Shown here: piece by piece, positions 10,106 to 54,809 of the stretch
Numbering within the stretch: position 1 is the stretch's first letter
Layout: each line of letters starts with the position of its first letter
NCBI GenBank assembly: GCA_050699875.1
Contig: JBOHFX010000091.1
Coordinates: 1,631-65,630 of the forward strand
DNA from: Pseudonocardiaceae bacterium
GTDB lineage: Bacteria; Actinomycetota; Actinomycetes; Mycobacteriales; Pseudonocardiaceae
DNA: 64,000 nt
Reading direction: 5' to 3'
The notes under the pieces: generated by a model
Told to the model about the DNA's origin: nothing
What the model saw: the letters and a program-made list of their open reading frames with translations, nothing else
Database searches by the model: none
Position numbers and translations under genes: made by a program

Positions 10106-12295
10106 TCAGCCACGGCTGGTGGCGAAGGCCGCCAGCGCGGCGAGCTGTAGCGAGTCCAGAGAAGGGCGAACGGCCCGGCGGGCGGTGTCCAGGTGTGCCG
10201 CGGTCACCTCGGTGGCTTCCAGGGACTCCCGCATGGCCGTCAGTGCGGCCTCGCGGATCAGCGCCGCGCAGTCTGCTGCGGAGTAGCCCTCCAGCTCATC
10301 GGCCAACGCGTCGAGGTCCACGTCGGCGGCCAGCGGGGTGTTGCGGGCCGTGGCTCGGAGGATGGCCGCACGGGCCTGTGCATCGGGTGGCGGCACATAC
10401 ACCAGCCGCTCCAGCCGGCCGGGCCGCAACAGTGCCGGATCGATGAGCTCGGGGCGGTTGGTCGCGCCCAGCACCACCACGTCGCGCAGCGGCTCCACCC
10501 CGTCGAGCTCGGTGAGCAGCGCGGCAACCACCCGGTCTGCGACACCGGCGTCGGCGGAGCTGCCGCGCCGGGGGGCCAGCGCGTCGACCTCGTCGAGGAA
10601 GATCAGTGCCGGTGCGGCGTCGGAGGCGCGGCGGAACAGCTCCCGCACCGCCCGTTCCGATTCGCCGACCCACTTGTCCAGCAGCTCGGCGCCCTTGACG
10701 GAGAGCACGTTAAGCGCTCCGGACCCGGCCAGTGCCCGGACCAGGAAGGTCTTTCCACCGCCCGGAGGTCCGTAGAGCAGCACCCCGCGGGGCGGGTCGA
10801 CGCCGAGGCGCGTGAATGAATCGGGGTAGCGCAGCGGCCACAGCACCGCTTCGGTGAGCGCCTGCTTGGTCTGCGTCATGTCGCCGACGTCATCCAGCGT
10901 CAGCCCCCCGGTATTGATGGTGTCCGACGTGGACATCGAGATGGGACGGACGGTGTCCAGGGCGCCGATCAGATCCTGCTGGGTGATCACAAGCGTGGAC
11001 TCGGCGTCGCTGCTGGAGCGGTGGCGCAGCGAGGCGCGCACCGCTGCCTCGCGGCGTAGGGCGACAAGGTCAGCGGTGACGAATCCGGGAGTGCGCTCAC
11101 CCACGGCTGCAAGGTCGACCTCGGTGTGCAACGGTATCGCCCGGAGTAGTACCCGGAGCAGCTCGGTTCGGGTCCGGGCTTCCGGCAGCCCCAGCGACAG
11201 CTCGCGATCGATCAGGTCCGGCGCGCGCAGCCGCGGATCCACCGACTCGGGATGCGCGGTGGTGATCACCAGCGCAGCGCGGTCCAGCGCGGGCGCCAGA
11301 GCGTCGAGCACGACGGTGGCCAGCGGCGGCGGATTGGTTGCCGGCAACAGCGCCTCGACATCCGTGATCAACAGCACACTGGGCTGGTGCTGGTAGGCGG
11401 CCGCCACCGCGTCGTGCACCCGCTGGGCGGCGGCGCCAGGCTGTACCGCCGCCACGCTCGGTGCGGCCAGCTCGACGACATGAGCCCCGGCGTCGCGGGC
11501 CACCGCCCGCACCATCGTGGCCTTGCCGACCCCCTCGGGGCCGTGCACCGCCACCCCGAGGCGAGGGCTCGCTCCGAGGCTGCGCAGCAGGTCCGGTCGC
11601 TGGAAAGTGAGTTCGAACCACTCGGCCAGCCGCCGGGCGGCGTCCTGGGCGCCCACCAGATCGGCCACCGCGGGCGTTGGGGATGCTGGCCTGGCGCCGC
11701 TGGAAAGCTGCAACGGCCCAGGCACGTCTCCGGTGCGCGCGCCGTCGCGCCAGCCGACCACAGTGGACGGGTGTGGCGCGACCGGCCCGGTGGGGTCGGT
11801 GGCGGTCACGGTGAGCAGCTCGTTGGTCCACGTCATCCCGATCGCAGCTGCCAGCCGGCGACGCACGCCCGCCACGTCCGACCCGGGCGCCAGATCCTGC
11901 GGAAGCAGGGAGACCGCATCTCCGGTGGTGATCACCTTGCCGGCCAGCGCGAGCCGCAGCGTCTCGGGGCTTACCGAATGGTTGACGAGTGCGGATCCGG
12001 TGACGGTGATGGATCGGGCGGCGGGCACCTGCACCGGTGCGAGCACCACCTCGGAGCCCTCGGTCAACCCCAGGTTGGACAGCGTGAGGTCATCGAGCAG
12101 CGCGATACCGGGGGCGGTGGTCTGCCCAGCGGCCGCCAGCGCCGCGCTGACTCGGGCCCCGGTGAGCCGCACGGCGTCCCACGGCCGCAGCCCCAACGCG
12201 TCGAGCACCTCCGGGTGCAGCCGGACCACACCGCGTCGCGCATCAAGGGCGGAGGTGGTGAGCCTGGCGGTCAAGGTGATCTGCGGCGCGCTCAC
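10106..12295 (-). CDS. Cdc48/VCP-like AAA+ ATPase with two AAA modules (Rv0435c-like)
   Basis: Walker A 'GPEGVGKATM' (D1) and 'GPPGGGKTFL' (D2); 'IFLDEVDAL' Walker B; N-domain 'RGVVRLHPEVLDALGLRPWDAVRLTG'. Start uncertain: GTG at 12295 is preferred over the ORF start at 12406. Confidence 0.85.
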   Translation of the reverse strand: MSAPQITLTARLTTSALDARRGVVRLHPEVLDALGLRPWDAVRLTGARVSAALAAAGQTTAPGIALLDDLTLSNLGLTEGSEVVLAPVQVPAARSITVTGSALVNHSVSPETLRLALAGKVITTGDAVSLLPQDLAPGSDVAGVRRRLAAAIGMTWTNELLTVTATDPTGPVAPHPSTVVGWRDGARTGDVPGPLQLSSGARPASPTPAVADLVGAQDAARRLAEWFELTFQRPDLLRSLGASPRLGVAVHGPEGVGKATMVRAVARDAGAHVVELAAPSVAAVQPGAAAQRVHDAVAAAYQHQPSVLLITDVEALLPATNPPPLATVVLDALAPALDRAALVITTAHPESVDPRLRAPDLIDRELSLGLPEARTRTELLRVLLRAIPLHTEVDLAAVGERTPGFVTADLVALRREAAVRASLRHRSSSDAESTLVITQQDLIGALDTVRPISMSTSDTINTGGLTLDDVGDMTQTKQALTEAVLWPLRYPDSFTRLGVDPPRGVLLYGPPGGGKTFLVRALAGSGALNVLSVKGAELLDKWVGESERAVRELFRRASDAAPALIFLDEVDALAPRRGSSADAGVADRVVAALLTELDGVEPLRDVVVLGATNRPELIDPALLRPGRLERLVYVPPPDAQARAAILRATARNTPLAADVDLDALADELEGYSAADCAALIREAALTAMRESLEATEVTAAHLDTARRAVRPSLDSLQLAALAAFATSRG

Positions 12296-12446
12296 GACGA
12301 CTGAGCCTACGTCAGCGCAACCGCGCGTCAGGGCTCCTCCATGCTGCGCCGGATTGGGCTCCGGGACTCGCCTCGGCCGACGAGCACCATCCGGCGTTCG
12401 TCTCATCAGCCGCTGTCACGGCGCGGTATGCGGATGCGCTATGGAG

Positions 12447-12492
12447 GTGCAACAGATGGCAACTTTGGGCGAGAAGTTGCCATCTGTGGCAC
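12447..12492 (-). terminator. Strong hairpin 31 nt downstream of the glycosyltransferase stop (likely operon terminator; no U-tract)
   Basis: ACAGATGGCAACTT (12452-12465) pairs perfectly with AAGTTGCCATCTGT (12474-12487), with an 8-nt loop. Four further bp follow one mismatch. Confidence 0.5.
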
Positions 12493-12523
12493 GTCTGCAT
12501 GGGGGACAGTTGTTTTCCAGAGT

Positions 12524-13615
12524 TCATCGAAGGTGCAAGTAGAAGTCCAGATGGCAGTGCGCGGCAGCTGACCAGGTGTAGCGGGCGGCGAGCGCGCGGC
12601 CGGCTTGCTCGGCAGCCGGGTCCGGATCAGTGAGCCCGGCCTCCAGTTTCGTCGCAAGCTCGGCCGGGTCGTCGGCGAAGCAGGCGACGCCGGTGAAGAT
12701 CTCCCGGAATACCGGCAGGTTCGTCACGACCAACGGGATGCCGGCGGCCAGCGCCTCCATCGCGGCCAGTCCGAAACCTTCCTTGGTGGACGGAAACGCG
12801 AACACACCCGCGGCGGCTACCAGCGCGGGCAGCGCGTCATGGTCCACCGGTCCGAGCACCACCGGCTCGACCCCGAGCTCATCGGCTCGCTGCTCCCAGC
12901 GGGCCCGGTAGTCCCGGTAGTCGAACAGGGTCTCCCCACCGGCGATCACCAGATGCACGTCCGGCATCCGCGCACTGAGCAGGGCATAGGCCTCTAGCAG
13001 TTTCAGCGATCCTTTGCGGGGCTCGATACCCCCGACGGCCAGCACGTACCGGCCAAACCACGACCGCCACGCGGCCCGGGCGCCGGCACCGGCCGGGCCG
13101 GCAGCACTGCGGAACCGGTGCGCGTCCACGCCGTTCGGGATGACCGTCGCAGTGATCCCCCAACCGTCGATCAATTCATCGGCGACCGAGGTGGACACGC
13201 AGACATGTGCGGACGGGTTGACGATGGCGCGTTCGTGGCAGGCGACCAGCTCGGGGGTGCTGAAGTGGTCGATGTGATGCACGGTGCGCACGCAGCGGTC
13301 GACGGCGTTAGCGCTGATGCAGTCCTGCGCGTGCACCACGTCATAACCGGTCGGGTCGAAAGCGTCCCGCAGCACCTCGATGGAACGCAGGATTCGGGGC
13401 CCGAAATCCTCTTCGGCGACGTCGGGAAACGGGGCGATTCGCAGTTCTATTCTAGGGTCGACGGGTCGGAAGAACGTGCAATCCCCGCCGCGGTCCAGCG
13501 CCCATACCGTCACCCGCTGGTCCAGTGCGACGAGAGCCTCTGCCAGCGACAGCGTGTGCACTACGCTGCCCCGCGGTCTGGTCGAGTACGTGAGCAGCGC
13601 TATCGACAGCCGCAT
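12524..13615 (-). CDS. GT4-family glycosyltransferase (MSMEG_0565-type, last gene of the cluster)
   Basis: 363 aa. 'MRLSIALLTYSTRPRGSVVHTLSLAEAL' at the N-terminus and 'FPSTKEGFGLAAMEALAAGIPLVVTN' (the E-x7-E region of GT-B enzymes). Confidence 0.8.
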   Translation of the reverse strand: MRLSIALLTYSTRPRGSVVHTLSLAEALVALDQRVTVWALDRGGDCTFFRPVDPRIELRIAPFPDVAEEDFGPRILRSIEVLRDAFDPTGYDVVHAQDCISANAVDRCVRTVHHIDHFSTPELVACHERAIVNPSAHVCVSTSVADELIDGWGITATVIPNGVDAHRFRSAAGPAGAGARAAWRSWFGRYVLAVGGIEPRKGSLKLLEAYALLSARMPDVHLVIAGGETLFDYRDYRARWEQRADELGVEPVVLGPVDHDALPALVAAAGVFAFPSTKEGFGLAAMEALAAGIPLVVTNLPVFREIFTGVACFADDPAELATKLEAGLTDPDPAAEQAGRALAARYTWSAAAHCHLDFYLHLR

Positions 13616-14445
13616 CAGTCAACCCGGTACACGCCGGGCTTGCGCTCGTCGATGTGCCGCAGGACCCGGCGAGCCTTGGCGATCTCCGCGGCGACGTCCA
13701 GCTCGGCGGTCGCGATACCGGCTTTGGACCAGGTGCGGGCCAGAATGTCACCGCCGGGTCCGACTACTTTCGCTTGCCCGAGGAAGCGCAGTTCGCCGAG
13801 CATCCCCGTTTGGTTGGATGAGACCAACACGATCTGGTTCTCCGCTGCTCTGGCCTGGTCGTAGAGGTCGAACAGCCGGGCTTGGCGGTCCTGGGCCATC
13901 CGTGGTGCGCGGTCGGTGAGGCTGGCCGGCCACGCTGATAAACAGGCCAGCACGTCGGCACCGTCCAGCGTGAGGGTGCGGGCCGATTCCGGAAAGGTCT
14001 TGTCGTAATCGATTAACATCCCGATCCGGCCAATCGGCGTGTCGAATGCGGAGAAACGCTCACCCGCCGAATACGCGATCGATTCGCCGGCGGGCTGATG
14101 AACCTTGCGATGGCTGCCCAGCACCCCGTCCCCATGCACGCACAGCGCAGTGTTGAAGCGCCGATCCCCGTCAGCTTCACAGAAACCGAAGCACACCACC
14201 ATCTCGGCCGCCAAGGAAGCGACCTTGCGGACGTGCGGATCATCAAGCGGCAGGGCGGGCGGTAACGCAGCCGGATCGGGCCGGCGCAGGTCGCCGAGGT
14301 AACCGCCGAGCGCCGCGTCGGGCAGCACCAGCAGCGCCACCCCGGACCGGCGGGCGTGCTCGATCAGCGTGGCCACCCGCTGCAGGTCGAAGTCGAGATC
14401 ACGACCGAACTTCGCGGCCACGGCGCCGATCCGGATCGCAGTCAT
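13615..14445 (-). CDS. Carbon-nitrogen hydrolase paralogue lacking the catalytic Glu and Cys (predicted pseudo-enzyme)
   Basis: About 70% identical over long stretches to the neighbouring nitrilase, but reads 'LLVLPDAALGGY' (Glu to Asp) and 'GMLIDYDKTFPE' (Cys to Asp). 'HRKVHQP' Lys is retained. Start at 'MTAIRIGAV'. Confidence 0.75.
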   Translation of the reverse strand: MTAIRIGAVAAKFGRDLDFDLQRVATLIEHARRSGVALLVLPDAALGGYLGDLRRPDPAALPPALPLDDPHVRKVASLAAEMVVCFGFCEADGDRRFNTALCVHGDGVLGSHRKVHQPAGESIAYSAGERFSAFDTPIGRIGMLIDYDKTFPESARTLTLDGADVLACLSAWPASLTDRAPRMAQDRQARLFDLYDQARAAENQIVLVSSNQTGMLGELRFLGQAKVVGPGGDILARTWSKAGIATAELDVAAEIAKARRVLRHIDERKPGVYRVD

Positions 14446-14453
14446 CTCAGGTG

Positions 14454-15344
14454 TCAGTATGGAAGGCGACTGCTTTCTGCGGGACAATCCTGCGGGACAC
14501 CCGCGTCCGGGCTGACCCTGTCGAGCCCGGCGTAGGCGTCTGGTCGGCGATCGCGCAGGTGGGCCATCGACCGGCGGGCCGTCTCCAGTGCTTCCTGGAC
14601 ATCCAGCTCGGCAACCGCAAGGCCGGCCTGCACGCCGGTGTCGGTCAGGATGTCACCGCCGGGATCGACGACCTTGGCGCTGGCCACGAACCGCAGCGAC
14701 CCGAACTGGCCGGATTGGTTGGCCGATAGCCAGATGATCTGGTTCTCCAGCGCTCGCACTCGGTCGAACAAGTCAAACCGGCGTTTCCAGCGGTCCTGAT
14801 GCAGGTTCGGTGCCGCCTTGGTGCGGCTGGCCGGCCACGCGGACAAGCACATCACCACCTCGGCCCCGTCCAGTGCCAGCGCCCGGGCGGACTCGGGGAA
14901 CGCCTTGTCATAGCAGATCATCATGCCCAGCCGCCCCACTGGGGTGTCGAAGGCGGTGAAGCGGCTACCCGCGGTGTAGCTGGCGTCCTCACGGAGCGGC
15001 TGATGCACTTTCCGATGGTGGCCCAGCACCCCGTCCCCGGTCACGCAGATGGCACTGTTGTAGAGCTGGTTCGCGTGCTGCTCGCAGTAGCCGACCGCGA
15101 CGACCATCTCCTTCGCCAGCCGCACCAGCCGGCGGATTTCCGACCCGTCCCGAGACAGCGGTGGCGGCAGCCCGGCCGCGCCGTTGAGGTTGGCCAGGTA
15201 CCCGCCCAACGCCGCTTCGGGCAAGGCGAGCAACCGCACTTCCGCGTCCCGAGCGGTGTCGATGAGCCGCTCGATGCGGGCGAAGTCGGCTTCCAGATCC
15301 CGGTCGAAGCCGGCTGCCGCCGCGGCCATCCGTAGCAGGTTCAT
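14454..15344 (-). CDS. Nitrilase / CN-hydrolase with intact Glu-Lys-Cys triad (Sll0784/MSMEG_0571-type)
   Basis: 'LLALPEAALGGY' (Glu), 'HRKVHQP' (Lys), 'GMMICYDKAFPE' (Cys). Its start overlaps the stop of the upstream gene (15341-15344). Confidence 0.8.
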   Translation of the reverse strand: MNLLRMAAAAAGFDRDLEADFARIERLIDTARDAEVRLLALPEAALGGYLANLNGAAGLPPPLSRDGSEIRRLVRLAKEMVVAVGYCEQHANQLYNSAICVTGDGVLGHHRKVHQPLREDASYTAGSRFTAFDTPVGRLGMMICYDKAFPESARALALDGAEVVMCLSAWPASRTKAAPNLHQDRWKRRFDLFDRVRALENQIIWLSANQSGQFGSLRFVASAKVVDPGGDILTDTGVQAGLAVAELDVQEALETARRSMAHLRDRRPDAYAGLDRVSPDAGVPQDCPAESSRLPY

Positions 15345-16765
15345 GCCGCCCCAAGCCCCGTCACCGCGTCCGTGATCACCTCGGTCAGCGCTCCGTCCGG
15401 CCAGCGCAGCGCCACCCCGCAGCCCGGAACTAACTCACCACAGTCCGCGGTGACCGCCGGTGACGCCTCCGGTGGCGGGCGCTCCGCCTGGTCGGCGGTG
15501 AGCATTCCGAAGCCGGGGAAACAGCTGAACCAATCGCCGACGCTGGCCTGCGCAGGACGGGGCACCGCGGCGACCTCAAGCACGGCCCGGCAACCGCTGG
15601 CCTCGGCGAGCATGCCAAGTGTGCCGGCCAGGCCCGCCATCGAGACGTCCTTGGCGGCGGCCGGACCGGCCACGGCCACCGAGCCGAGCATCGCGCGCAG
15701 CTCGGGGGTCCGCCGGTGGGAGGTGGAGTCCCACTGGCGACCGGCATATCCGGGCCGCCACCCACCCGCGGTGACTGCGATGTCTACCGTGTACCGGATG
15801 CGGTGGCCCGGACGGCCGCTACCGCCACGGATCGGATGCGCCGCGCGACCCAGCGCGGTGACCGACAGCGCGGCGGGCACGCCGAGCTGAGTGTGACCGC
15901 CGAGCACCGGGACGCCGTAAGCTTGGCTGGCGCGACGCAATCCGGCCAGCACCCGGCTGGCGAACGAGCGGTCCCGCGCTCCCAGCGCGTCGAGCAGGCC
16001 GACCGGCGTCGCGCCCATGGCTGCCAGGTCGTTGACGTTGACCAGGACCGAGCACCAACCGGCCCACTCCGGGTCACGTTCGACCATCGACGGCAGGATC
16101 GCATCGCAGGCGGCTACCAGGTCACTGCCGGGTACCGGGGCACCATCGTCGCCGACGTAACCAATCCCGCCCGGCGCGAGCTCGGATAGCAGCCCTCCGA
16201 GCTCGGCCTTGGTGGCGGCGACCAGCGCAGCGATCCGGTCGATCGGCCAACGCATCAGCATGTGCGCGGTTCCGGCGACGATTACCGGGCGCACCGGGAT
16301 CCAGCCGAGCCGGGTGAAGAACACCTCATTGCGGGCCTGGACGGTCGCCTCGAAGCGCAGCACTCCAGCGCTTTCCGCGTGCGCGCAGGCGGCCCGAACC
16401 AGGGCAGCACCGACGCCGCGCAGCGGGCAGCGCGGGTCCGCCACGAGCCGCCCGCCATACCACCACCCGAGGTCGGGACCGTTATCTACCGGGCCGAGTC
16501 GCACGCCGCCGAGCACGGAGCCCTCGACGTTGCGGGCCACCAGGACCAGCGTCCGGGGGTCGTCATCGCGGTCGTCGCGGTCGTGATCGGTGAACAAGCC
16601 CTGCCGGTGCACGAACACCTCGGTTCGCAGCCGGTAGTAGGCGTCCCGGGTCGCCGGGTCTGCTGCCGGTGTTATCTGGAAGTCGGCTCGCTGGGCTGGT
16701 TGGCCGAGCAGCGCTTCGCCCAGGCCATGGGCGCTGCGGTAGGCCACTGAGGTCGTCGTGTGCAC
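15341..16765 (-). CDS. Fusion protein: N-terminal GNAT acetyltransferase plus AIR-synthase-related (PurM-like) domain (Sll0786/Sll0787-type)
   Basis: The GNAT part reads 'LRGVGAALVRAACAHAESAGVLRFEATVQARNEVFFTRLGW'. The PurM-like part reads 'VLVNVNDLAAMGATPVGLLDALG...GVPVLGGHTQLG'. GTG start at 16765, 2 nt after the radical SAM stop. The 599-aa ORF start is an overprint on the upstream gene. Confidence 0.75.
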   Translation of the reverse strand: MHTTTSVAYRSAHGLGEALLGQPAQRADFQITPAADPATRDAYYRLRTEVFVHRQGLFTDHDRDDRDDDPRTLVLVARNVEGSVLGGVRLGPVDNGPDLGWWYGGRLVADPRCPLRGVGAALVRAACAHAESAGVLRFEATVQARNEVFFTRLGWIPVRPVIVAGTAHMLMRWPIDRIAALVAATKAELGGLLSELAPGGIGYVGDDGAPVPGSDLVAACDAILPSMVERDPEWAGWCSVLVNVNDLAAMGATPVGLLDALGARDRSFASRVLAGLRRASQAYGVPVLGGHTQLGVPAALSVTALGRAAHPIRGGSGRPGHRIRYTVDIAVTAGGWRPGYAGRQWDSTSHRRTPELRAMLGSVAVAGPAAAKDVSMAGLAGTLGMLAEASGCRAVLEVAAVPRPAQASVGDWFSCFPGFGMLTADQAERPPPEASPAVTADCGELVPGCGVALRWPDGALTEVITDAVTGLGAA

Positions 16766-16767
16766 GG

Positions 16768-17835
16768 TCAGGCTCCTGCCGCCGACAGCGCGCCGCATGC
16801 CCCGCACGCCGCGCAGCCGGCCTGCTGGTCGGCGCCGATCATGCCGGCGGCGCGCAGTGCGGCAGCTACCCGCTCGGTGACGTACCGGACCAGCGTGGCG
16901 GGTGGTGCGCCGATGCCGTCCCGACGGGCCAGCGTGCCGGCCATCGGGCGGAACGGCACCACGAACGGGTACACCCCCCGCTCGATCAACCGGGTTGCAC
17001 CGGCGACCAGCTCGTCCGGGTCCTCGCCCAACCCCACCAGCAGGTAGGTCGACACCCGGTTGCGACCGAAGACTCGCACGGCCTCGTCCCAGGCCGCTTC
17101 GTACTCGGCCATCGGCACTGCACCTTTGCCGGGCATCCACCGCCTGCGCACGTCGTCGTCGAGCGACTCGACGTGGATCCCGATCGCGGTTACACCGGCC
17201 TCGCGCAGGTCGGTGAGGACAGCGAGGTCTCCGGGTGGCTCAATCTGCACCTGGATGGGCAGACCTGGCACTGCTTTGAGCACCGCCCGCACGCAGCGGA
17301 CGAGGTAGCGGGCACCGCGGTCGGGGCCAGCCGTCGTGCCGGTCGTCATCACCATCTGCCGGATCCCATCCAGCCGCACGGCCGCCTGCGCCACCTCAGC
17401 CAACTGGGCCGGGGTCTTGGCCGCGATGGTCGCGCCGGCTCGCAGTGACTCCTCGATGGTGCAGAACCGGCAGCGCTGGTCCTCGGTGTAGCGGATGCAG
17501 GTCTGCACCACGGTGGTGGCCAGTACGTCAGCGCCGTGCAGGCGGGCGATCTGCTCGTACGGCACTCCGTCGGTGGTGGCCAGATCGTAGAACCGGGGCC
17601 GGTTGACGAGCTGGAGCGCCAGCCCGGTGTCCAGCTCCCCGAGGAAGATCCGGCCATCGTGCAGCCGGTAGGGACTGTCCGGGTTGCGGGGTAACGCGGC
17701 GTTGACACCGTCGACGAGCACGTGGCCGTCATCGCTGGGTCCGGCCCCGTCCGGGCGCCGAACCGGTGCTTCCATCTGCACGCCCTGCAACGCGATATCA
17801 ACCCGAGTCGCCAGTCTCTCGGCTGTGGTACCCAT
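16768..17835 (-). CDS. Radical SAM enzyme (MSMEG_0568-type) with C-x8-C-x2-C cluster motif and a C-terminal CxxCxxC tail
   Basis: 'TVVQTCIRYTEDQRCRFCTIEES'; TIM-barrel-like 'MVMTTGTT' and 'IGIHVESLDD'. The tail is 'QAGCAACGACGALSAAGA'. GGAGG lies 6 nt upstream of the ATG at 17835. Confidence 0.8.
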   Translation of the reverse strand: MGTTAERLATRVDIALQGVQMEAPVRRPDGAGPSDDGHVLVDGVNAALPRNPDSPYRLHDGRIFLGELDTGLALQLVNRPRFYDLATTDGVPYEQIARLHGADVLATTVVQTCIRYTEDQRCRFCTIEESLRAGATIAAKTPAQLAEVAQAAVRLDGIRQMVMTTGTTAGPDRGARYLVRCVRAVLKAVPGLPIQVQIEPPGDLAVLTDLREAGVTAIGIHVESLDDDVRRRWMPGKGAVPMAEYEAAWDEAVRVFGRNRVSTYLLVGLGEDPDELVAGATRLIERGVYPFVVPFRPMAGTLARRDGIGAPPATLVRYVTERVAAALRAAGMIGADQQAGCAACGACGALSAAGA

Positions 17836-17959
17836 CGCTGCCTCCTCACCAGAGATCTTTGAGTGCACTCGGCCCCGAACCCGACAGCAGAGCCGTCCGG
17901 CTGCCTTGGCGAGCTCGGCTGTCGAGTTCAGTAAGGACAGGGCTGTGACCAGGGGACGC

Positions 17960-18472
17960 CTAGAACATGTAGGTGGAATTGATGATCGCTCCCTTACGCG
18001 CGTAGTGGATCAACGCGTCCTGCACGTCGAGGGGATGGGTCGGGATGACGCCTTCGATGAGGTCCTCCTCGCGGGCGCCGTGCAGCGAAAGGCCGAAGCG
18101 GCAGCAGAACACCTTGCCGCCCTCTTTCATGAATGTCTTCAACGAGTCGTTGATGTTGTGCTCTCCGGGGAACGCCGAATTACCGGTGGTGGGGAAGCCG
18201 CGGGTGGCGAGGCAGTTCAGCGACCCCGGGCCGTAGAAGTAGATCGCCGACTCGAAGCCCTTCCGCTGCGCCCGGGTGGCCTGCAGGATAGCCACAAAAC
18301 TGACCGATGATTCGTGCGCGATTCCGTGTACCAGCGTGAAATACGTCTCGCCGTTTTCGGCCTGGTAATCCGGGAAAACCTTGGTTCCGCCATAAATGTT
18401 GGATCCTTCGGGCAGCGACGGGTGCGGGATCTCCTCAAGACTCTGCTTCTCGATGTCGGTCAGATCGGCCAT
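17960..18472 (-). CDS. Sll0783/MSMEG_0572-family protein (nitrogen-starvation-associated, function unknown)
   Basis: 170 aa: 'MADLTDIEKQSLEEIPHP...FVAILQATRAQRKGFESAIYFYGPG...CCRFGLSLHG'. GAGGAGG lies 7 nt upstream of the ATG at 18472. Family assignment is by recollection and cluster context. Confidence 0.65.
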   Translation of the reverse strand: MADLTDIEKQSLEEIPHPSLPEGSNIYGGTKVFPDYQAENGETYFTLVHGIAHESSVSFVAILQATRAQRKGFESAIYFYGPGSLNCLATRGFPTTGNSAFPGEHNINDSLKTFMKEGGKVFCCRFGLSLHGAREEDLIEGVIPTHPLDVQDALIHYARKGAIINSTYMF

Positions 18473-18496
18473 GTGACGCCTCCTCATCAGTTGGAT

Positions 18497-19324
18497 TTAC
18501 CCGTAAAGTCCTTCGAACGTGTCGCGGAACACCCGCCTGGCGAGCTCACCGTCGCCGGTGGCTGTACGCAGCTTCGCCAGCTCACCGGCGAAATCCCCCC
18601 AGGGCTGGTCGCTGGCGAACAGGATCCGGTCGTGGCCCACTCCGCGCCGGTTGATTTCGCGGACCAGCCAGCGCGGAGCGAATCCGATCGACCAGGACAG
18701 GTCGGTGTAGATCCGTTTGCCGGCCGCGATCCAGTCGAAGAACCGTGCGCCGGCCAACTTGATGTGGCCGCTCATTCCGCCACCGAAGTGCACCAGGTGA
18801 ATCGCTACCCTGTCGCCGTAGGAGTCGACCAGGCGGCCGACTTCGTCGATGTCCGAATTCCCGCCGGGCGAGGTGTGCACGTGCACCACCAGATTGTGTT
18901 CCCGGGCGACGTGGAAGATTTCATCAAGCAGGGGTGTGCACTCCTGGTCGGTCACCCGGCCACCGAGCAGGAAACTCAACTTCAGCGCTCGCACCCCAGG
19001 CTCACCGGCCAGCGCCAGTGCCTTGGTCGTTCGGTCGGCGTCGGCGGGCTTGGGTGATACCCACAGTGCTGCCCTGATCCGGTCGTCGGTATGGGCTGCC
19101 TCAATGACCAGTTCGTTGAACGAGAACGCGATGTCCGGGTCCGGCACGCCGTAATTCGGGATGACCAGTGCCCGTTCCGTTCCTTCGGTGTCCAGATCCG
19201 AGATCAACTCGGCAATAGTGGCCCTGGCGGTCGTATCGGGATTGACTGCAGGGCCGCCGTAGAACGGGAATGCCGGTAGCACTCCCAGGTGTCGGTGAGC
19301 GTCGAAGACGCGACTGGCGGACAC
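18497..19324 (-). CDS. Amidohydrolase-fold (TIM-barrel metal-dependent hydrolase) protein
   Basis: 'RVFDAHRHLG' (HxH metal motif), 'VVHVHTSPG', 'AIHLVHFGGG', 'ILFASDQPW'. GTG start at 19324, 5 nt after the flavoprotein stop. The longer ORF start overlaps the upstream gene. Confidence 0.7.
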   Translation of the reverse strand: MSASRVFDAHRHLGVLPAFPFYGGPAVNPDTTARATIAELISDLDTEGTERALVIPNYGVPDPDIAFSFNELVIEAAHTDDRIRAALWVSPKPADADRTTKALALAGEPGVRALKLSFLLGGRVTDQECTPLLDEIFHVAREHNLVVHVHTSPGGNSDIDEVGRLVDSYGDRVAIHLVHFGGGMSGHIKLAGARFFDWIAAGKRIYTDLSWSIGFAPRWLVREINRRGVGHDRILFASDQPWGDFAGELAKLRTATGDGELARRVFRDTFEGLYG

Positions 19325-19328
19325 GGCG

Positions 19329-20689
19329 TCACGCCACCGTGCGGGGAGCGACCCACTCGTCGTCCCGCGGGTAGGTGCTGGTCGAGGTGCCCGCAATCCA
19401 CCGGAACACGTGGTCGGAGCTGGCAGTGATGCGCTCAGCGAGGTACCTGGCGTCATCGGCCACTCCGGACAGCCGGCCGGAACCCCAGGTGTGCTGCCAG
19501 GGCAGCCCGAGGAAGAACAGGCCAGGGCTGCTGGTGACACCTCGATCATGCGTCGGGTAACCACGGCCGTCGAATACCGGCACCTCGATCCACCGGTCGT
19601 CGCGACCGAATCCGGTGCTCCAGATCACCGAGGTGACTGCGGTGTCGCCGAGCTCTAATCGGGTGGTTTCCCGCTCGGGTGTCCACACCGGCGTATAGCG
19701 TGATTCGGGCGCAGCGTCGATACAATGCGCCTCGATATGGTCGTCGATGGAGTCCTTGATGCTTTCCGATACCGCATCGGCCTGATCGAGGTTCCTTGCC
19801 AAGTCCGGTGCGAACCGCAACGCGTTCGCGTCCACAGCGACCAGGCGCCCGTAAAGGCGCATCCCTTGCCGGGCGAAGGCGCGCAGGTCGATATCCCGCC
19901 CACCGTCGCGTCCGGTGACGTAATGGTTCACCCGAAACCGCACCGCGTCCGCATCAGCGAACTCGTCGACCGCCTTGCGGTAGTAACCCACCGCGTCCAG
20001 CCAGGCGACTACGTCGCGGCCGCGGTAGAACCGGGCCACTCGCGGGGCGCTACCCACTGCGAGATGTACTTGACGGCCTGCCAGATGCAGATCCTCGGCG
20101 ATCTGGCAGCCGGACTGCCCGGTACCGACCACCAGCACCTCACCGGACGGAAGCTGGTCGGGACCGCGGTATTGCGACGAATGGATCTGCATCAGCTCGT
20201 CGGGCAGTCGGTCGCCCAGCCGGGAATCAGCGGCACCTGGTATGGACCGGTGGCCAGCACGACTCGATCGGCGATCAGCTCTCCGTTGCTGGTACCGACC
20301 AGGTACCGACCTTGACGATCGCGGCGCAACCGGGTAGCCGCGACGCCCTCGATGACCGGTGGGTTGAATGACTGCGCGTATGCCTGGATATACCCGGCAA
20401 TCTCGTCGCGCGTCATGAATCCGTCCGGATCATCGCCGGCGTACGGAAACCCAGGCAGTTGGCACTGCCAATTGGGTGTCACCAGGCAGAAGGAATCCCA
20501 TCGCCGGTCCCGCCATTCATGGCCGACGCGGTCACGCTCCAGCACGACATGATCGACGCCGCGTCGGGTGAGGCAGTAGCTCATGGACAAACCGGCCTGT
20601 CCGCCACCGACGACCACCACCGAATGATGTACGCCCTCGAGGTCTTCGCAAGTATCACCGGGCGTCGAGGCCTTCGCGGTCAGGGTCAT
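19329..20689 (-). pseudogene. Flavin-dependent oxidoreductase (two-dinucleotide-fold, MSMEG_0569-type) split by a 1-nt frameshift
   Basis: The N-terminal ORF (20192-20689) has 'VVVVGGGQAGLS'. The C-terminal ORF (19329-20192) has '[17 protein letters not shown]'. Across the junction, frame A reads '...[20 protein letters not shown]' and frame B reads '[19 protein letters not shown]', so one base is missing near CCCGGCTGGGCG (about 20216-20224). Confidence 0.6.
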
Positions 20690-20867
20690 GCCCCGAATCC
20701 CTCCACGGTAAGTGCCTCACGGCCCGGCCATACGGAAACGCTAAGAACGTGCTTTACTGAGATTGCAAGGTATTCGTGGGCTTTAGTACAGCGGGCGATT
20801 ATTTCCGATTCGTTGCATCCGGAACATCGGCGTGTTGCAAATAAACGCCGGATGTAAATCGCACGTC

Positions 20868-21809
20868 TCAGTGGTGCCGGCGTAGGCCAAGTCGGCGGGG
20901 GCGCCGTTCTCGGGGTATCTGGCCGTTGGTCTCGCCGCCACGCCTGCGGCGCACCGCGGCGCCGGCCCTGGCGGCGGCACCGGCCACCCGTCGTCGCAGC
21001 GGCGGGCGCAGCCCGAGCCGTCGCATGCTGCGAGCGGTGCGGCGGATCGCCCGGCGCTGGCCAGGCGGGACCTCCCACGCCGAGGGATGCCGGGCGAGCC
21101 ATCGGTAGCGGTAGCTCGCATAGGGCACGTGGACCAGATACAGCAGCAACGCCACACCTAGTGATGCGAACGGGAACGTGATCACCGCGGCCGCCAGCCC
21201 GGCGATCAGCACCAGCAGCGGTGCCATCGCACGGGGTGACACCCGCACTGTCTTCATGGACAGCGTGGGTAACCGGCTCACCATCGCCATGGCCACCGCG
21301 ATGGTCCATGCCGCCACGGTCGCCGGCGATGACCACCAGCCCGCACCGAACTGGAGGAAGACCGTGAGTGGGAGCAACGCCAGCAGCGCGCCGGCCGGAG
21401 TGGGGACTCCGACGAAGAACTCTTTGGCGAAGGGCAACGCCTCGGTGTCGTCCAGCAGCGTGTTGAACCGAGCCAGCCGCAACACTGCGCACACCGAGAA
21501 CACCAGCGCCACCGGCCACCCGATCCGGGTGCCATCCAGCACCCAGACGAACAGCACGGCCGCGGGTGCTACCCCAAAGGACACACAGTCGGCCAGCGAG
21601 TCCAGCTCGGCACCGATCCGGGAGGTGGCGTCGAGCAACCGGGCCAGCCGGCCGTCCAGAGCATCCAGCAGCGCCGCGAGCGCGATCGCGGTCAGCGCGC
21701 CGATGTAGTTGCCGTCCAGGGCGAACTTCAGCGCGGAAAGACCCGAGCACAGCGCCAACACGGTGATCGCGTTGGGCAGCAGGCGGACCCCGGCGCCAGC
21801 GTTGGGCAC
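20868..21809 (-). CDS. pssA: CDP-diacylglycerol--serine O-phosphatidyltransferase
   Basis: CDP-alcohol transferase motif 'DALDGRLARLLDATSRIGAELDSLAD'; polytopic membrane protein. GTG start 3 nt after the psd stop. Confidence 0.85.
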   Translation of the reverse strand: MPNAGAGVRLLPNAITVLALCSGLSALKFALDGNYIGALTAIALAALLDALDGRLARLLDATSRIGAELDSLADCVSFGVAPAAVLFVWVLDGTRIGWPVALVFSVCAVLRLARFNTLLDDTEALPFAKEFFVGVPTPAGALLALLPLTVFLQFGAGWWSSPATVAAWTIAVAMAMVSRLPTLSMKTVRVSPRAMAPLLVLIAGLAAAVITFPFASLGVALLLYLVHVPYASYRYRWLARHPSAWEVPPGQRRAIRRTARSMRRLGLRPPLRRRVAGAAARAGAAVRRRRGGETNGQIPRERRPRRLGLRRHH

Positions 21810-24395: not shown

Positions 24396-26042
<1,647 letters not shown>

Positions 26043-48060: not shown

Positions 48061-48159
48061 ATCTGGCGCCTCCGCGGGCGTGGACGGACGGTGGTCCGCC
48101 GATGGCGCTTCGCTATCCTGCGGCACCGTACAGCCCCGGGAAGAGCGGCAGGCAACCCG

Positions 48160-49638: not shown

Positions 49639-49703
49639 GCCACGGCATGCGCCCTGGCGGAGCAAGCTTCGACCGCGCCTCTTCCCTCGACCAGCGGTGT
49701 ACC

Positions 49704-49991
49704 ATGACGACCATGAGTACACATAGCCTTCGCGACCTGCGCAACAATCTCGGCGCTGTGGTGCGCGAGGTTGCCTACACCGGTCACGAGGCGGTCATCA
49801 CCGACAACGGCCGGGACGTCGCTGTCATTATCAGCTTGGACGATTACGAGCGGCTACACGAGCACGCCGATATCGCCGACGCCCTGCGTCTACGGAACCT
49901 GCGCGCCACCGGCTACGCCACAATTTCGCTGGACGACATGCTCGCCACGCTGGGCGTATCTATCGAGGATTTCGCAGAGCAGGCAGTGTGA
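49704..49991 (+). CDS. Phd/YefM-family antitoxin
   Basis: 'HSLRDLRNNLGAVVREVAYTGHEAVITDNGRDVAVIISLDDYERL'. It overlaps the toxin start by 4 nt. Confidence 0.75.
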   Translation: MTTMSTHSLRDLRNNLGAVVREVAYTGHEAVITDNGRDVAVIISLDDYERLHEHADIADALRLRNLRATGYATISLDDMLATLGVSIEDFAEQAV

Positions 49992-50239
49992 ACATCGCGT
50001 TTCATCCCGACGTCTACAAGCAGCTCCAGCAACTGCCTCGCCAGATGTTCTCAGCAGCGCTACACGCAATCATTGCCCTCACACACAACCCGCGACCGAT
50101 CGGTGTCAAGAAGCTGGTCGGTAGTCGCAGCGACTGGCGCATACGCCTCGGCGAATACCGAATCATCTATGAGATCGACGATACCGCCGAGACAATAACG
50201 GTGCTGCAGGTTGAACACCGGCGGGATGCGTACCGCTGA
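49988..50239 (+). CDS. RelE/ParE-family toxin
   Basis: 83 aa: 'GSRSDWRIRLGEYRIIYEIDDTAETITVLQVEHRRDAY'. Confidence 0.75.
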   Translation: MNIAFHPDVYKQLQQLPRQMFSAALHAIIALTHNPRPIGVKKLVGSRSDWRIRLGEYRIIYEIDDTAETITVLQVEHRRDAYR

Positions 50240-50368
50240 TCGCAGACGATCCCGGCCGCCGACAAGCCTCCTGAGAGGTGCGGGGAGGTTGACGACAACC
50301 GCTCTTCTGCGCACACTGTACCCAGTAGCGTATTAGCGTACGACGTACTCAGTCAGGAGGCGGCAACG

Positions 50369-51220: not shown

Positions 51221-51245
51221 CCCCCAATAACCCCGGTGACTGAGC

Positions 51246-51407
51246 ATGACGATCCTGGTGACTGGCGCGACTGGGCATGTCGGCCGGCACATCGTGGAGC
51301 AGCTGGCAGCGCGTGGTGTGGCGGTGCGGGCGCTCACGCGTGCTCGCCACACCGCTGACCTACCCGAAACCCCGCTCAGCCCCGCTGGACGCGGTGGTGC
51401 CGTTTGA
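51246..51407 (+). pseudogene. 5' remnant of a second NmrA-like gene, truncated where it meets the 3' end of mycP
   Basis: My own translation gives 'MTILVTGATGHVGRHIVEQLAARGVAVRALTRARHTADLPE...', followed by nonsense over the antisense of mycP and a stop at 51405-51407. Confidence 0.4.
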
Positions 51408-54767: not shown

Positions 54768-54809
54768 TGCCACAGGCGGCAACTGCGGAGATGGTTGCCG
54801 CCTGTGGCA
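54768..54809. other. Perfect 16-bp inverted repeat in the eccD-eccC divergent spacer
   Basis: TGCCACAGGCGGCAAC (54768-54783), a 10-nt loop, then GTTGCCGCCTGTGGCA (54794-54809). Confidence 0.6.

What the first reader, a model, noticed from the sequence alone, without database searches (positions are those of the whole stretch)
12524..20689. Eight-gene Nit1C / 'MSMEG_0565-0572, Sll0783-0787'-type cluster of unresolved chemistry, apparently inserted between a Cdc48-like ATPase and psd-pssA
All eight genes are co-directional on the minus strand and tightly packed or overlapping. In order they are:
- a flavin oxidoreductase
- an amidohydrolase
- an Sll0783-like protein
- a radical SAM enzyme
- a GNAT-AIR-synthase fusion
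- a nitrilase
- a second CN-hydrolase
- a GT4 glycosyltransferase

A strong hairpin closes the unit at 12447-12492, and an AT-richer promoter region lies at 20690-20867.

From memory, these families co-occur as a conserved neighbourhood. They have been linked to nitrogen starvation in Synechocystis and mycobacteria, and to growth on cyanide in Pseudomonas ('Nit1C'). To my knowledge no substrate, product or pathway logic has been established.

The enzyme set (radical SAM, ATP-grasping PurM-like domain, acyltransferase, nitrilase, flavoenzyme, glycosyltransferase) looks like small-molecule biosynthesis or detoxification rather than bulk nitrogen metabolism.

In M. tuberculosis, as I recall, the ATPase (Rv0435c) directly abuts pssA (Rv0436c). 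The cluster here therefore behaves as an accessory insertion into conserved synteny.
Basis: partly seen in the sequence, partly recalled or inferred. Interest (0 to 1): 0.75.

Follow-up and report, generated by a model that had tools for sequence, protein, structure and literature searches.

The report
Nitrogen-starvation gene cluster, one gene broken
This is a real copy of a widespread but chemically unsolved nitrogen-starvation operon (the mycobacterial 'gpr' relative of Nit1C), sitting in a variable chromosomal slot of an uncultured soil actinomycete; one of its eight genes is frameshifted and one 'hydrolase' lacks its catalytic cysteine.

Summary
The eight-gene minus-strand unit at 12524-20689 is real. 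Five of the genes match NCBIfam models of the MSMEG_0565-0572 set above cut-off. The strong hairpin (12444-12495) and the AT-richer leader (53% vs 67.5% GC) are also confirmed.

- The host is an uncultured Pseudonocardiaceae, not a mycobacterium.
- The flavoprotein gene is split by a 1-nt deletion in a C run. An independent assembly of the reads shows the same deletion.
- Neither CN-hydrolase is a Nit6803-type nitrilase. They are paralogues: one keeps the Glu-Lys-Cys triad and the other has Asp-Lys-Asp.
- No MSMEG_0570 gene is present. An Amidohydro_2 TIM-barrel protein, decarboxylase/lactonase-like by fold, is an extra member.

The same gene order recurs in Amycolatopsis and Kutzneria, and in Streptomyces with an added MSMEG_0570 gene, each in an unrelated genomic context.

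pssA directly abuts the ATPase in 29 of 67 informative relatives. The cluster fills the slot in 7, all close relatives. The "accessory insertion" reading therefore holds.

A GlnR-box-like operator travels with the operon in five genera.

The chemistry remains unknown. This is a sub-architecture of a known cluster family, of moderate interest.

The parts
20801..20838 (-). Four-site operator-like block GCAAC-n6-ATGTT-n6-GCAAC-n6-GAAAT (a1-b1-a2-b2, 11-nt register). An invariant-spaced heptamer CTGTACT follows at 20785-20791.
   Evidence: The block is conserved upstream of the operon in close MAGs. It is also found in Amycolatopsis, Kutzneria, Streptomyces and a Rhodococcus plasmid, whose flanks are unrelated. 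The pattern hits once in the window against 0 expected, and nowhere else in the 87 loci. It has the architecture of actinomycete GlnR boxes as described in PMC3662644. GlnR binding itself is inferred.
20690..20867 (-). Leader/promoter region between pssA and the first cluster gene
   Evidence: 53% G+C against 67.5% for the cluster and the window. No sigma-70 consensus match. No Rfam match.
20192..20689 (-). Flavoprotein, N-terminal piece (165 aa, FAD-binding GGGQAG). It ends at a TGA created by a frameshift.
   Evidence: TIGR04046 profile positions 1-143, 208.9 bits. There is a 1-nt deletion in the C run at about 20222-20224, relative to six orthologues that are uninterrupted. Logan contig L087, assembled from the same read set, is identical across the site.
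19329..20192 (-). Flavoprotein, C-terminal piece (287 aa, second GTGQSG nucleotide-binding motif). Its ATG overlaps the upstream stop (TGATG).
   Evidence: TIGR04046 profile positions 146-400, 417.6 bits. The repaired 453-aa protein scores 650.4 bits against a cut-off of 498.35. The ATG codon is unique to the window; relatives have ACG or ACC there.
18497..19324 (-). Amidohydro_2 TIM-barrel metal-dependent enzyme (275 aa)
   Evidence: PF04909, 53.7 bits. No NCBIfam hit and no PDB sequence hit. The AF2 model has pLDDT 82 and pTM 0.86. The best folds are LigI lactonase, IDCase, gamma-resorcylate decarboxylase and ACMSD, at TM 0.62-0.70. H10/H12, H148/H150, H176/H179 and D239 are invariant.
17960..18487 (-). 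MSMEG_0572/Sll0783 family protein (NitB equivalent). The start is more likely at 18472, giving 170 aa.
   Evidence: TIGR04044, 254.3 bits against a cut-off of 109.85. There is a weak DsrE-like Pfam hit below cut-off. It is 96-97% identical in close MAGs and 80% identical to the Rhodococcus plasmid copy. The identical Logan contig has it called as 170 aa.
16768..17835 (-). MSMEG_0568-family variant radical SAM enzyme (355 aa)
   Evidence: TIGR04043, 492.3 bits against a cut-off of 303.7. It has a Cx8CxxC cluster motif and a conserved C-terminal GCxxCGxC. The start was chosen by its RBS.
15341..16765 (-). GNAT + PurM/AIR-synthase-like fusion (474 aa)
   Evidence: TIGR04045, 88.3 bits (cut-off 68.45). 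TIGR04050, 461.9 bits (cut-off 312.2). The closest PDB sequences are ThiL, HypE and PurM. The GTG start lies 2 nt after the rSAM stop.
14454..15344 (-). CN-hydrolase 1 (296 aa) with an intact Glu-Lys-Glu-Cys set
   Evidence: PF00795, 132 bits. The Nit6803 model scores only 30.3 bits against a cut-off of 502.6. The closest PDB entry is PH0642 (1j31), E = 1e-25. The LPE / RKVH / MICYDK motifs are conserved in orthologues.
13615..14445 (-). CN-hydrolase 2 (276 aa), a paralogue 55% identical to hydrolase 1 in which the catalytic Glu and Cys are both replaced by Asp (LPD / LIDYDK)
   Evidence: The same substitutions occur in all orthologues examined, including the gene just before the GT on the Rhodococcus plasmid. 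At the level of 50%-identity representatives, this clade has D/G/H/A at the Glu position and D or G at the Cys position.
12524..13615 (-). MSMEG_0565-family GT4 glycosyltransferase (363 aa)
   Evidence: TIGR04047, 452.1 bits against a cut-off of 259.85. The next named families are EpsE, MshA and BshA, all far below their cut-offs.
12444..12495 (-). Stem-loop closing the operon (22-nt arms, 8-nt loop, no T tail)
   Evidence: It is unique: absent from the 87 loci and not repeated in the window.
20868..21809 (-). pssA (CDP-alcohol phosphatidyltransferase), upstream flank
   Evidence: PF01066. It was used as the anchor for the 80 related loci.
10106..12406 (-). Cdc48-like double-AAA ATPase, downstream flank
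   Evidence: PF00004 x2, AAA_lid_3 and CDC48_N. It directly follows pssA in 29 related genomes.

Best explanation
SHOWN. The region is one co-directional operon of the actinobacterial MSMEG_0565-0572 ('gpr') family, a relative of Nit1C. It has a sub-architecture shared with Amycolatopsis and Kutzneria, and with Streptomyces plus an added 0570 gene: flavin monooxygenase-like protein, Amidohydro_2, 0572/Sll0783 protein, variant radical SAM, GNAT-PurM fusion, active CN-hydrolase, Cys-less CN-hydrolase paralogue, GT4. It occupies a variable slot between pssA and a Cdc48-like ATPase. Those two genes are directly adjacent in most Pseudonocardiaceae genera. In this genome the flavoprotein gene carries a 1-nt deletion.

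INFERRED.
- Under nitrogen limitation a GlnR-type response regulator binds the conserved four-site operator at 20801-20838 and switches on the whole unit, which ends at the 12444-12495 hairpin.
- The enzymes act together on one small nitrogen-containing metabolite.
- The PurM-like domain activates a carbonyl or amide oxygen with ATP, as ThiL, HypE and PurM do, and the fused GNAT transfers an acyl group.
- The radical SAM enzyme and the NAD(P)H-dependent flavoprotein carry out radical and oxygenation steps. This would tie the pathway to the NADPH pool.
- The Amidohydro_2 enzyme performs a decarboxylation or ring-opening type step, taking the place of or adding to the small 0570 protein.
- The Glu-Lys-Cys hydrolase, probably as a heterodimer with its dead paralogue, cleaves a C-N bond. 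This is more likely an amide or carbamoyl bond than a nitrile, and it releases ammonia.
- The GT4 glycosylates the product or an intermediate.
- With the flavoprotein split, the pathway in this organism is either impaired and on its way to loss, or it runs on a two-piece enzyme.
For: - Family hits above curated cut-offs.
- The same eight-gene order in L081 and L082, and in L086 with an added 0570 gene, each with unrelated neighbours. The same order in seven close MAGs.
- Tight spacing and start/stop overlaps.
- Junction census: 29 adjacent, 7 with the cluster, 8 with other 2-5 kb inserts, 23 with other content.
- The operator is conserved in five genera with identical 11-nt register and 9-nt spacing to a heptamer. 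It hits once in the window (0 expected) and only upstream of the cluster in the 87 loci.
- In M. smegmatis a GlnR ChIP peak lies at MSMEG_0572 with 263-fold induction (PMC3662644).
- Deleting gpr lowers the NADPH/NADP ratio and peroxide resistance (PMC6039565). The Synechocystis sll0783 mutant shows the same direction of NADPH/NADP change (PMC3901256).
- PurM-family neighbours are ThiL, HypE and PurM.
- Active/dead CN-hydrolase pair. Related tandem two-domain proteins nearly always pair a Cys-bearing N-domain with a Cys-less C-domain.
- Amidohydro_2 fold neighbours.
- The frameshift is reproduced in a second assembly. A decayed copy exists in L003.
Against: - No substrate, product or single-enzyme activity is known for any member except the Nit6803-type nitrilase, which is absent here.
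- The operator pattern was derived after seeing the sequences. Its b-sites (TTRTT, GnnAT) depart from the GaAAC consensus. A loose GlnR consensus is not enriched in the window (12 hits against 10.6 expected). No GlnR binding was tested.
- A glycosyltransferase fits a biosynthetic pathway better than a scavenging one.
- The heterodimer idea rests on analogy only.
- The frameshift means function in this genome is uncertain.
- Both assemblies use the same read set, so a systematic read error is not excluded.
Confidence: 0.6

Rival explanations
1. It is a biosynthetic cluster. It would build a glycosylated small molecule, for example a redox-protective or low-molecular-weight-thiol-like compound. 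Ammonia release would be incidental, and nitrogen starvation would only be the trigger.
For: - The GT4 is a dedicated family member (TIGR04047). Its nearest named relatives include MshA and BshA, of mycothiol and bacillithiol synthesis.
- An MSMEG_0568-family rSAM and an MSMEG_0565-family GT recur together in L018. There they sit with a SARP regulator, an amino-acid kinase and a CoA ligase, which is typical secondary-metabolite company.
- PGAP attaches 'biosynthetic process' to these families.
- The mutant phenotypes are redox and peroxide phenotypes, not growth on a particular nitrogen source.
Against: - The MshA and BshA scores are far below their cut-offs.
- Nit1C versions lack the GT altogether, so glycosylation is not core to the family.
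- GlnR, NtcA and sigma-54 control, and the cyanide-growth phenotype in Pseudomonas, point to nitrogen acquisition.
- No product has ever been reported.
Confidence: 0.3
2. It is a Nit1C cluster in the strict sense. It would be a cyanide/nitrile assimilation system whose key enzyme is a nitrilase acting on cyanohydrins or other nitriles.
For: - It shares five families with Nit1C: 0572/NitB, rSAM/NitD, GNAT/NitE, PurM-like/NitF and flavoprotein/NitH.
- Nit1C is required for growth on cyanide in Pseudomonas.
Against: - Both CN-hydrolases score 27-30 bits on the Nit6803 model against a cut-off of 502.6.
- They are about 26% identical to Klebsiella NitC.
- Their nearest solved relatives are PH0642-type enzymes, N-carbamoylputrescine amidase and Nit2, not branch-1 nitrilases.
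- NitG/0570 is absent.
- No sigma-54 activator lies next to the unit.
Confidence: 0.1
3. In this genome the cluster is a dying relic. The frameshift would inactivate the flavoprotein, so the operon would no longer make or degrade anything.
For: - The 1-nt deletion splits the gene and is present in two assemblies.
- L003 shows a copy with internal losses in four genes.
- The cluster is present in only 7 of 26 informative close relatives.
Against: - The other seven genes are full-length.
- The window's proteins are 73-97% identical to their orthologues, apart from the GNAT-PurM fusion (54-61%).
- The operator is intact.
- The split falls just before the second nucleotide-binding motif. An ATG found only in the window overlaps the new stop, which would allow re-initiation.
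Confidence: 0.3

Closest known systems
gpr (GlnR-dependent peroxide resistance) cluster, MSMEG_0565-0572 of Mycolicibacterium smegmatis. It is represented here by the same architecture on Rhodococcus qingshengii plasmid pN9T4-1 (L083).
   Same: - It has the 0572 protein, 0568 rSAM, fused GNAT-PurM (0567), 0569 flavoprotein, 0565 GT4 and two non-Nit6803 CN-hydrolases.
- In the Rhodococcus copy one hydrolase has Glu-Lys-Cys. The one just before the GT has Asp-Lys-Asp, exactly as in the window.
- A similar operator block lies upstream.
   Different: - The gene order differs. Rhodococcus has 0572-rSAM-0567-CNh-0570-flavoprotein-CNh-GT.
- The window lacks the 0570 protein and carries an Amidohydro_2 gene that the Mycobacteriales version lacks.
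- The window's flavoprotein gene is frameshifted.
- The M. smegmatis sequence itself was not examined here.
Nit1C cluster (nitBCDEFGH) of Pseudomonas, Synechocystis (sll0783-0787) and Klebsiella plasmids (L084)
   Same: It shares the NitB/0572, NitD/rSAM, NitE/GNAT, NitF/PurM-like and NitH/flavoprotein families. It is also linked to nitrogen starvation.
   Different: - Nit1C has a true Nit6803-family nitrilase and NitG/0570.
- Its GNAT and PurM-like genes are separate.
- It has no GT4, no second hydrolase and no Amidohydro_2.
- It has a sigma-54 activator in Pseudomonas.
Streptomyces sp. GQFP nine-gene version (L086)
   Same: It has the same order from the flavoprotein to the GT, including Amidohydro_2 (77% identical) and the hydrolase pair. 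It has the same operator block.
   Different: It keeps an MSMEG_0570-family gene (127 bits against a cut-off of 79.85) in front of the flavoprotein. The Pseudonocardiaceae copies have none.

Membership tests
MSMEG_0565-0572 / gpr-type cluster | MSMEG_0572/Sll0783 family protein | tested here: met
   TIGR04044, 254.3 bits against a cut-off of 109.85
MSMEG_0565-0572 / gpr-type cluster | MSMEG_0568 family radical SAM protein | tested here: met
   TIGR04043, 492.3 bits against 303.7
MSMEG_0565-0572 / gpr-type cluster | Fused GNAT (MSMEG_0567 N-terminal) and PurM-like (MSMEG_0567 C-terminal) protein | tested here: met
   TIGR04045, 88.3 bits against 68.45. TIGR04050, 461.9 bits against 312.2. Both in one ORF.
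MSMEG_0565-0572 / gpr-type cluster | MSMEG_0569 family flavin-dependent oxidoreductase, as an intact gene | tested here: inconclusive
   The family is certain: the two pieces score 208.9 + 417.6 bits, and the repaired ORF scores 650.4 against 498.35. The gene is split by a 1-nt deletion.
MSMEG_0565-0572 / gpr-type cluster | MSMEG_0570 family small protein | tested here: not met
   tblastn with three 0570 proteins gives no hit better than E = 1.5 in the window, and none at E <= 1e-3 in L081, L082 or six cluster-bearing MAG relatives
MSMEG_0565-0572 / gpr-type cluster | MSMEG_0565 family glycosyltransferase | tested here: met
   TIGR04047, 452.1 bits against 259.85
MSMEG_0565-0572 / gpr-type cluster | Two CN-hydrolase genes that are not Nit6803-type | tested here: met
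   PF00795, 132 and 113 bits. The same active/Cys-less pair is on the Rhodococcus plasmid.
MSMEG_0565-0572 / gpr-type cluster | GlnR-dependent induction under nitrogen starvation | not testable with these tools
   There is only a conserved GlnR-box-like operator. Binding and expression were not measured.
Nit1C (nitBCDEFGH) | Nit6803 / sll0784 family nitrilase (NitC) | tested here: not met
   TIGR04048, 30.3 and 26.6 bits against a cut-off of 502.6. About 26% identity to Klebsiella NitC.
Nit1C (nitBCDEFGH) | NitG (MSMEG_0570 family) | tested here: not met
   Absent
Nit1C (nitBCDEFGH) | Seven-gene order nitB-C-D-E-F-G-H with separate NitE and NitF | tested here: not met
   The order is different, GNAT and PurM-like are fused, and GT, Amidohydro_2 and a second hydrolase are added
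Nit1C (nitBCDEFGH) | Requirement for growth on cyanide as nitrogen source | not testable with these tools
   This is a phenotype known only for Pseudomonas
Nitrilase-superfamily enzyme (catalytic Glu-Lys-Cys) | Nucleophile Cys and general-base Glu present in CN-hydrolase 2 | tested here: not met
   It has LPD and LIDYDK in place of LPE and MICYDK. The change is conserved in all orthologues.

The most novel reading that the evidence does not exclude
The actinobacterial clusters may encode an obligate heteromeric CN-hydrolase, with one catalytic subunit and one conserved Cys-less (Asp-Lys-Asp) subunit that holds or delivers the substrate to the adjacent GT4. The 0568-type radical SAM enzyme and the 0565-type GT may form a portable two-enzyme module reused with different activation enzymes (GNAT-PurM here, amino-acid kinase plus CoA ligase in L018). 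Together they would make a previously unseen glycosylated nitrogen metabolite that sets the NADPH/NADP balance during nitrogen starvation.
Probability: 0.2. Interest if true: 0.65.

Novelty: new variant of a known kind. Interest (0 to 1): 0.4.

Why it matters
They also occur on hundreds of Klebsiella plasmids. The cluster is among the most strongly nitrogen-starvation-induced loci in M. smegmatis and Synechocystis. No substrate or product is known.

This instance does not solve that problem, but the comparison around it narrows it in four ways:
- It shows which parts are core (0572, rSAM, GNAT, PurM-like, flavoprotein) and which are exchangeable: nitrilase against an active/dead amidase-like pair, 0570 against Amidohydro_2, and the GT.
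- It shows that one 'hydrolase' cannot be a nitrilase-type catalyst.
- It points to a cis-element that can be tested directly with GlnR.
- It identifies cultured carriers of the same architecture in which deletions and metabolomics are feasible.

Tried and rejected
- Sigma-70 promoter and T-tailed terminator scans over 12300-21000 found nothing useful: 0 promoters, and 1 terminator-like site inside a gene against 3.7 expected.
- Rfam found no match in the window at gathering scores, and none in the leader at E <= 1. A riboswitch in the leader is not supported.
- A loose GlnR consensus (GnnAC-n6-GnAAY) is not enriched in the window: 12 hits against 10.6 expected. The single match alone is no evidence; only the cross-genus conservation is.
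- PDB sequence searches gave nothing for the 0572 protein or Amidohydro_2, and only marginal hits for the rSAM enzyme.
- The 124-nt spacer after the 0572 gene contains a stem, but the fold is not better than shuffles (z = -0.72). An internal attenuator is not supported.
- No direct repeats, IS remnants or tRNA were found at the cluster borders in the window. Cluster G+C equals window G+C. There is therefore no mark of a recent transfer or of the insertion mechanism.
- The GC-rich tandem repeats that flank the cluster in L019/L028 are absent from the window.
- Assembly error as the cause of the frameshift was considered. An independent Logan assembly of SRR27067769 carries the same base sequence. 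A read-level error remains possible.
- Selenoprotein read-through, proposed for M. smegmatis in PMC6039565, was considered for the split flavoprotein and rejected. The two pieces are in different frames, so read-through of the TGA cannot join them.

Full report
**What is there.**
Nine minus-strand ORFs tile 12524-20689. After choosing starts by ribosome-binding sites and by comparison with orthologues, the layout is:
- flavoprotein, 20689-19329, in two pieces
- Amidohydro_2, 19324-18497
- MSMEG_0572/Sll0783 protein, 18487 or 18472-17960
- radical SAM, 17835-16768
- GNAT+PurM-like fusion, 16765-15341
- CN-hydrolase 1, 15344-14454
- CN-hydrolase 2, 14445-13615
- GT4, 13615-12524

Neighbouring genes overlap by 1-4 nt or lie 2-24 nt apart. 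The one exception is a 124-nt gap after the 0572 gene, whose fold is not better than shuffles.

The 117-nt spacer before the ATPase gene holds a stem-loop with 22-nt arms at 12444-12495. It folds at -43.7 kcal/mol, z = -4.6, and 0 of 200 shuffles fold as well. The leader 20690-20867 is 53% G+C, against 67.5% for both the cluster and the window.

**Family assignment.**
NCBIfam models are matched above their curated cut-offs for five of the genes:
- MSMEG_0565 GT: 452 bits against 260
- MSMEG_0567 N-terminal: 88 bits against 68
- MSMEG_0567 C-terminal: 462 bits against 312
- MSMEG_0568 rSAM: 492 bits against 304
- MSMEG_0572: 254 bits against 110
- MSMEG_0569 flavoprotein: 650 bits against 498, once the frame is repaired

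- The Nit6803/sll0784 nitrilase model gives only 27-30 bits against a cut-off of 502.6 for either CN-hydrolase.
- No MSMEG_0570 homologue exists anywhere in the window. None exists at the clusters in Amycolatopsis, Kutzneria or six cluster-bearing MAG relatives.

The flanks are pssA, psd and a Cdc48-like double-AAA ATPase. groEL, rpoA and ESX secretion genes lie further along. This is conserved chromosomal core. From my own memory, the order ATPase-pssA-psd-...-groEL matches M. tuberculosis Rv0435c-Rv0440; I did not test that.

**Organism.**
The best pssA matches (82-89%) are uncultured Pseudonocardiaceae MAGs. The Amidohydro_2 and flavoprotein-N proteins are 100% identical to proteins of an NCBI Pseudonocardiaceae MAG contig of 88,764 nt. 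The host is not a mycobacterium.

**A broken gene.**
The flavoprotein profile is covered in two frames: positions 1-143 by 20689-20192 and positions 146-400 by 20192-19329. I aligned the DNA with six orthologues, each of which has one uninterrupted 448-477-codon frame. The alignment shows a single missing C in a C run at about 20222-20224 and no other frame-breaking indel.

Two Logan contigs assembled independently from run SRR27067769 are 100% identical to the window over 17447-21222, including the deletion. An assembler artefact is therefore unlikely. A read-level error is not excluded.

The new stop overlaps an ATG (TGATG). That ATG is unique to the window; relatives have Thr codons there. 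The split falls just before the second GxGxxG motif. Re-initiation yielding a two-piece enzyme is conceivable but untested.

One relative, L003, carries a copy with internal losses and frame changes in four genes. Decay of the cluster does occur in this lineage.

**The 'nitrilase' pair.**
The two CN-hydrolases are paralogues, 55% identical. Their nearest solved relatives are Pyrococcus PH0642-type proteins, N-carbamoylputrescine amidase and Nit2. They are only about 26% identical to a Nit1C nitrilase.
- Hydrolase 1 keeps the Glu-Lys-Glu-Cys set (LPE, RKVH, LRED, MICYDK).
- Hydrolase 2 has Asp at both the Glu and the Cys positions (LPD, LIDYDK).

The hydrolase 2 substitutions are found in the five MAG orthologues aligned, in Amycolatopsis and Kutzneria, and in the gene just before the GT on a Rhodococcus plasmid.

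Among 50%-identity representatives, the relatives closest to hydrolase 2 have D, G, H or A at the Glu position and D or G at the Cys position. Some also lack the Lys. Of the remaining single-domain relatives, 36 carry the full Glu-Lys-Glu-Cys pattern.

A related family of ~550-600-residue tandem proteins pairs a Cys-bearing N-domain with a Cys-less C-domain in nearly every case. I infer that hydrolase 2 is a non-catalytic partner of hydrolase 1. This is analogy, not a test.

**The extra gene.**
The Amidohydro_2 protein has no NCBIfam family and no PDB sequence relative. It is nonetheless 75-80% identical in Streptomyces, Streptosporangiaceae and Carbonactinospora.

An AlphaFold model (pLDDT 82, pTM 0.86) is closest to LigI lactonase, isoorotate decarboxylase, gamma-resorcylate decarboxylase and ACMSD. 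These matches have TM 0.62-0.70 at 12-17% identity. The His-x-His, further His residues and the strand-8 Asp are invariant. It looks like an active metal enzyme of the decarboxylase/lactonase group, not an amide hydrolase.

**Three architectures.**
1. Nit1C, seen on a Klebsiella plasmid: 0572 - Nit6803 nitrilase - rSAM - GNAT - PurM-like - 0570 - flavoprotein.
2. Mycobacteriales, seen on a Rhodococcus plasmid between two IS256 copies: 0572 - rSAM - GNAT/PurM - CNh(EKC) - 0570 - flavoprotein - CNh(DKD) - GT.
3. The window, Amycolatopsis acidiphila and Kutzneria sp.: flavoprotein - Amidohydro_2 - 0572 - rSAM - GNAT/PurM - CNh(EKC) - CNh(DKD) - GT. Streptomyces sp. GQFP adds a 0570 gene in front.

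In the genomes of type 3 the neighbours are unrelated to one another, so the unit moves as a block.

**Insertion into conserved synteny.**
Eighty species-level loci anchored on pssA fall into these classes:
- 29 have pssA directly followed by the ATPase; 28 of these are in other genera such as Pseudonocardia, Lentzea, Saccharothrix and Saccharopolyspora
- 7 carry the cluster, all in the close MAG clade and all in the same place and orientation
- 8 have another 2-5 kb insert before the ATPase
- 23 carry other content
- 13 are too short to tell

In close relatives the same slot holds quite different cargo:
- L002 has a trypsin-STAND-WD40 system and a DUF222 gene.
- L018/L006 have a SARP regulator with another MSMEG_0568-family rSAM, an amino-acid kinase, a CoA ligase and an MSMEG_0565-family GT.

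I found no repeats or mobile-element scars at the borders and no G+C deviation. The mechanism and date of insertion are unknown.

**Regulation.**
The leaders of the seven close copies diverge, except for an ~80-nt block. The core of that block also lies upstream of the operon in Amycolatopsis, Kutzneria, Streptomyces and the Rhodococcus plasmid. It reads GTAAC-n6-TTRTT-n6-GnnnC-n6-GnnAT, followed after exactly 9 nt by a CTGTACT-like heptamer.

The pattern occurs once in the window (0 expected). In the 87 loci fetched it occurs only at these leaders. I derived the pattern after seeing the sequences, so only its specificity counts as evidence, not the matches it was built from.

Four 5-nt sites in 11-nt register are the layout described for actinomycete GlnR boxes: gTnAc-n6-GaAAc, with a core of AC-n9-AC (PMC3662644). 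In M. smegmatis a GlnR ChIP-seq peak lies at MSMEG_0572 and the gene is induced 263-fold. I infer GlnR control here; it was not tested.

**How it probably works.**
*Published.*
- The M. smegmatis cluster (gpr) is needed for peroxide resistance and for a high NADPH/NADP ratio under nitrogen starvation (PMC6039565).
- The Synechocystis sll0783 mutant also has a more oxidised NADPH pool (PMC3901256).
- Nit1C is needed for growth on cyanide in Pseudomonas, through its nitrilase (PMC7815647 and PMC11049912).
- None of the papers found reports a substrate or product.

*My reading (inference).* This is a GlnR-switched pathway acting on one small nitrogen-containing compound:
- ATP-dependent activation and acyl transfer by the GNAT-PurM protein, whose relatives are ThiL, HypE and PurM
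- radical and NAD(P)H-dependent oxygenation steps
- a decarboxylase/lactonase-type step
- C-N cleavage by an amidase-like, not nitrilase-like, heteromer
- glycosylation

Whether the net purpose is nitrogen release or synthesis of a protective glycoside cannot be decided from sequence. I give the biosynthetic rival 0.3 and the strict nitrile/cyanide reading 0.1.

**Verdict.**
This is a sub-architecture of a known, unsolved cluster family, already present in many sequenced genomes. No paper found in the searches here deals with this sub-architecture. Interest is moderate.

Noticed in passing
L018 10818-20384 (also L006): In sister MAGs the same slot downstream of pssA holds a different cluster. 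It comprises a SARP/BTAD-AAA-TPR regulator, an MSMEG_0568-family rSAM (399 bits, above cut-off) on the opposite strand, an amino-acid kinase, a CoA-ligase and an MSMEG_0565-family GT (358 bits, above cut-off). The rSAM and GT look like a portable pair.
   Followed up: partly
L002 11814-20898: Another sister MAG has unrelated cargo in the slot. It holds a trypsin-nSTAND1 protein next to an nSTAND1-WD40 protein (possibly one split STAND NTPase), a DUF222 protein and a trans-2-enoyl-CoA reductase.
   Followed up: partly
L003 6770-9522: This is a decayed copy of the cluster. It has internal losses and frame changes in the flavoprotein (residues 72-171 missing), Amidohydro_2 (first 68 residues missing), the 0572 protein (first 46 missing) and the rSAM (77-143 missing). 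Misassembly was not excluded.
   Followed up: partly
window 20190-20194: The stop of the truncated flavoprotein piece overlaps an ATG (TGATG). That ATG is unique to this genome; six relatives have ACG or ACC. It could be chance, or it could be a change that allows re-initiation and a two-piece enzyme.
   Followed up: partly
L019 10951-11080 and 19240-19330; L028, L034 and L020 leaders: Tandem GC-rich ~20-nt repeats (consensus about GCCCGSTGTGTCGCGC) lie between pssA and the cluster in several relatives. In L019 they lie on both sides of the cluster. They are absent from the window.
   Followed up: no
L083 3561-4844 and 17650-18489: The Rhodococcus qingshengii plasmid copy of the cluster has an IS256-family transposase gene on each side (4.1 kb upstream and 1.2 kb downstream), like a composite transposon.
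   Followed up: no
L084: Nit1C-type clusters sit on 516 plasmid records, 374 of them Klebsiella and 30 Escherichia. In the Klebsiella plasmid examined, an AMP-binding protein follows the flavoprotein and a PLP-dependent aminotransferase-family gene lies upstream, divergently.
   Followed up: no
window 16768-17835: The radical SAM enzyme has a non-canonical Cys spacing (Cx8CxxC; Cx9CxxC in Klebsiella). It also has a conserved C-terminal GCxxCGxC motif that could bind a second cluster.
   Followed up: partly
P0273, P0279 and about 35 further representatives: This is a family of ~550-600-residue proteins with two CN-hydrolase domains. The N-domain keeps the catalytic Cys and the C-domain almost always has Gly instead.
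   Followed up: partly
L004 and L013: In two close MAGs pssA is followed within 1.6-5 kb by the def gene with no ATPase in between, so the Cdc48-like ATPase itself is dispensable in this lineage.
   Followed up: no
window 48091-59196: There are ESX/type VII secretion genes (EccB 48091-49638; an FtsK/SpoIIIE-type EccC-like protein 55162-59196) downstream of the rpoA region. groEL lies at 24414-26042, next to psd.
   Followed up: no
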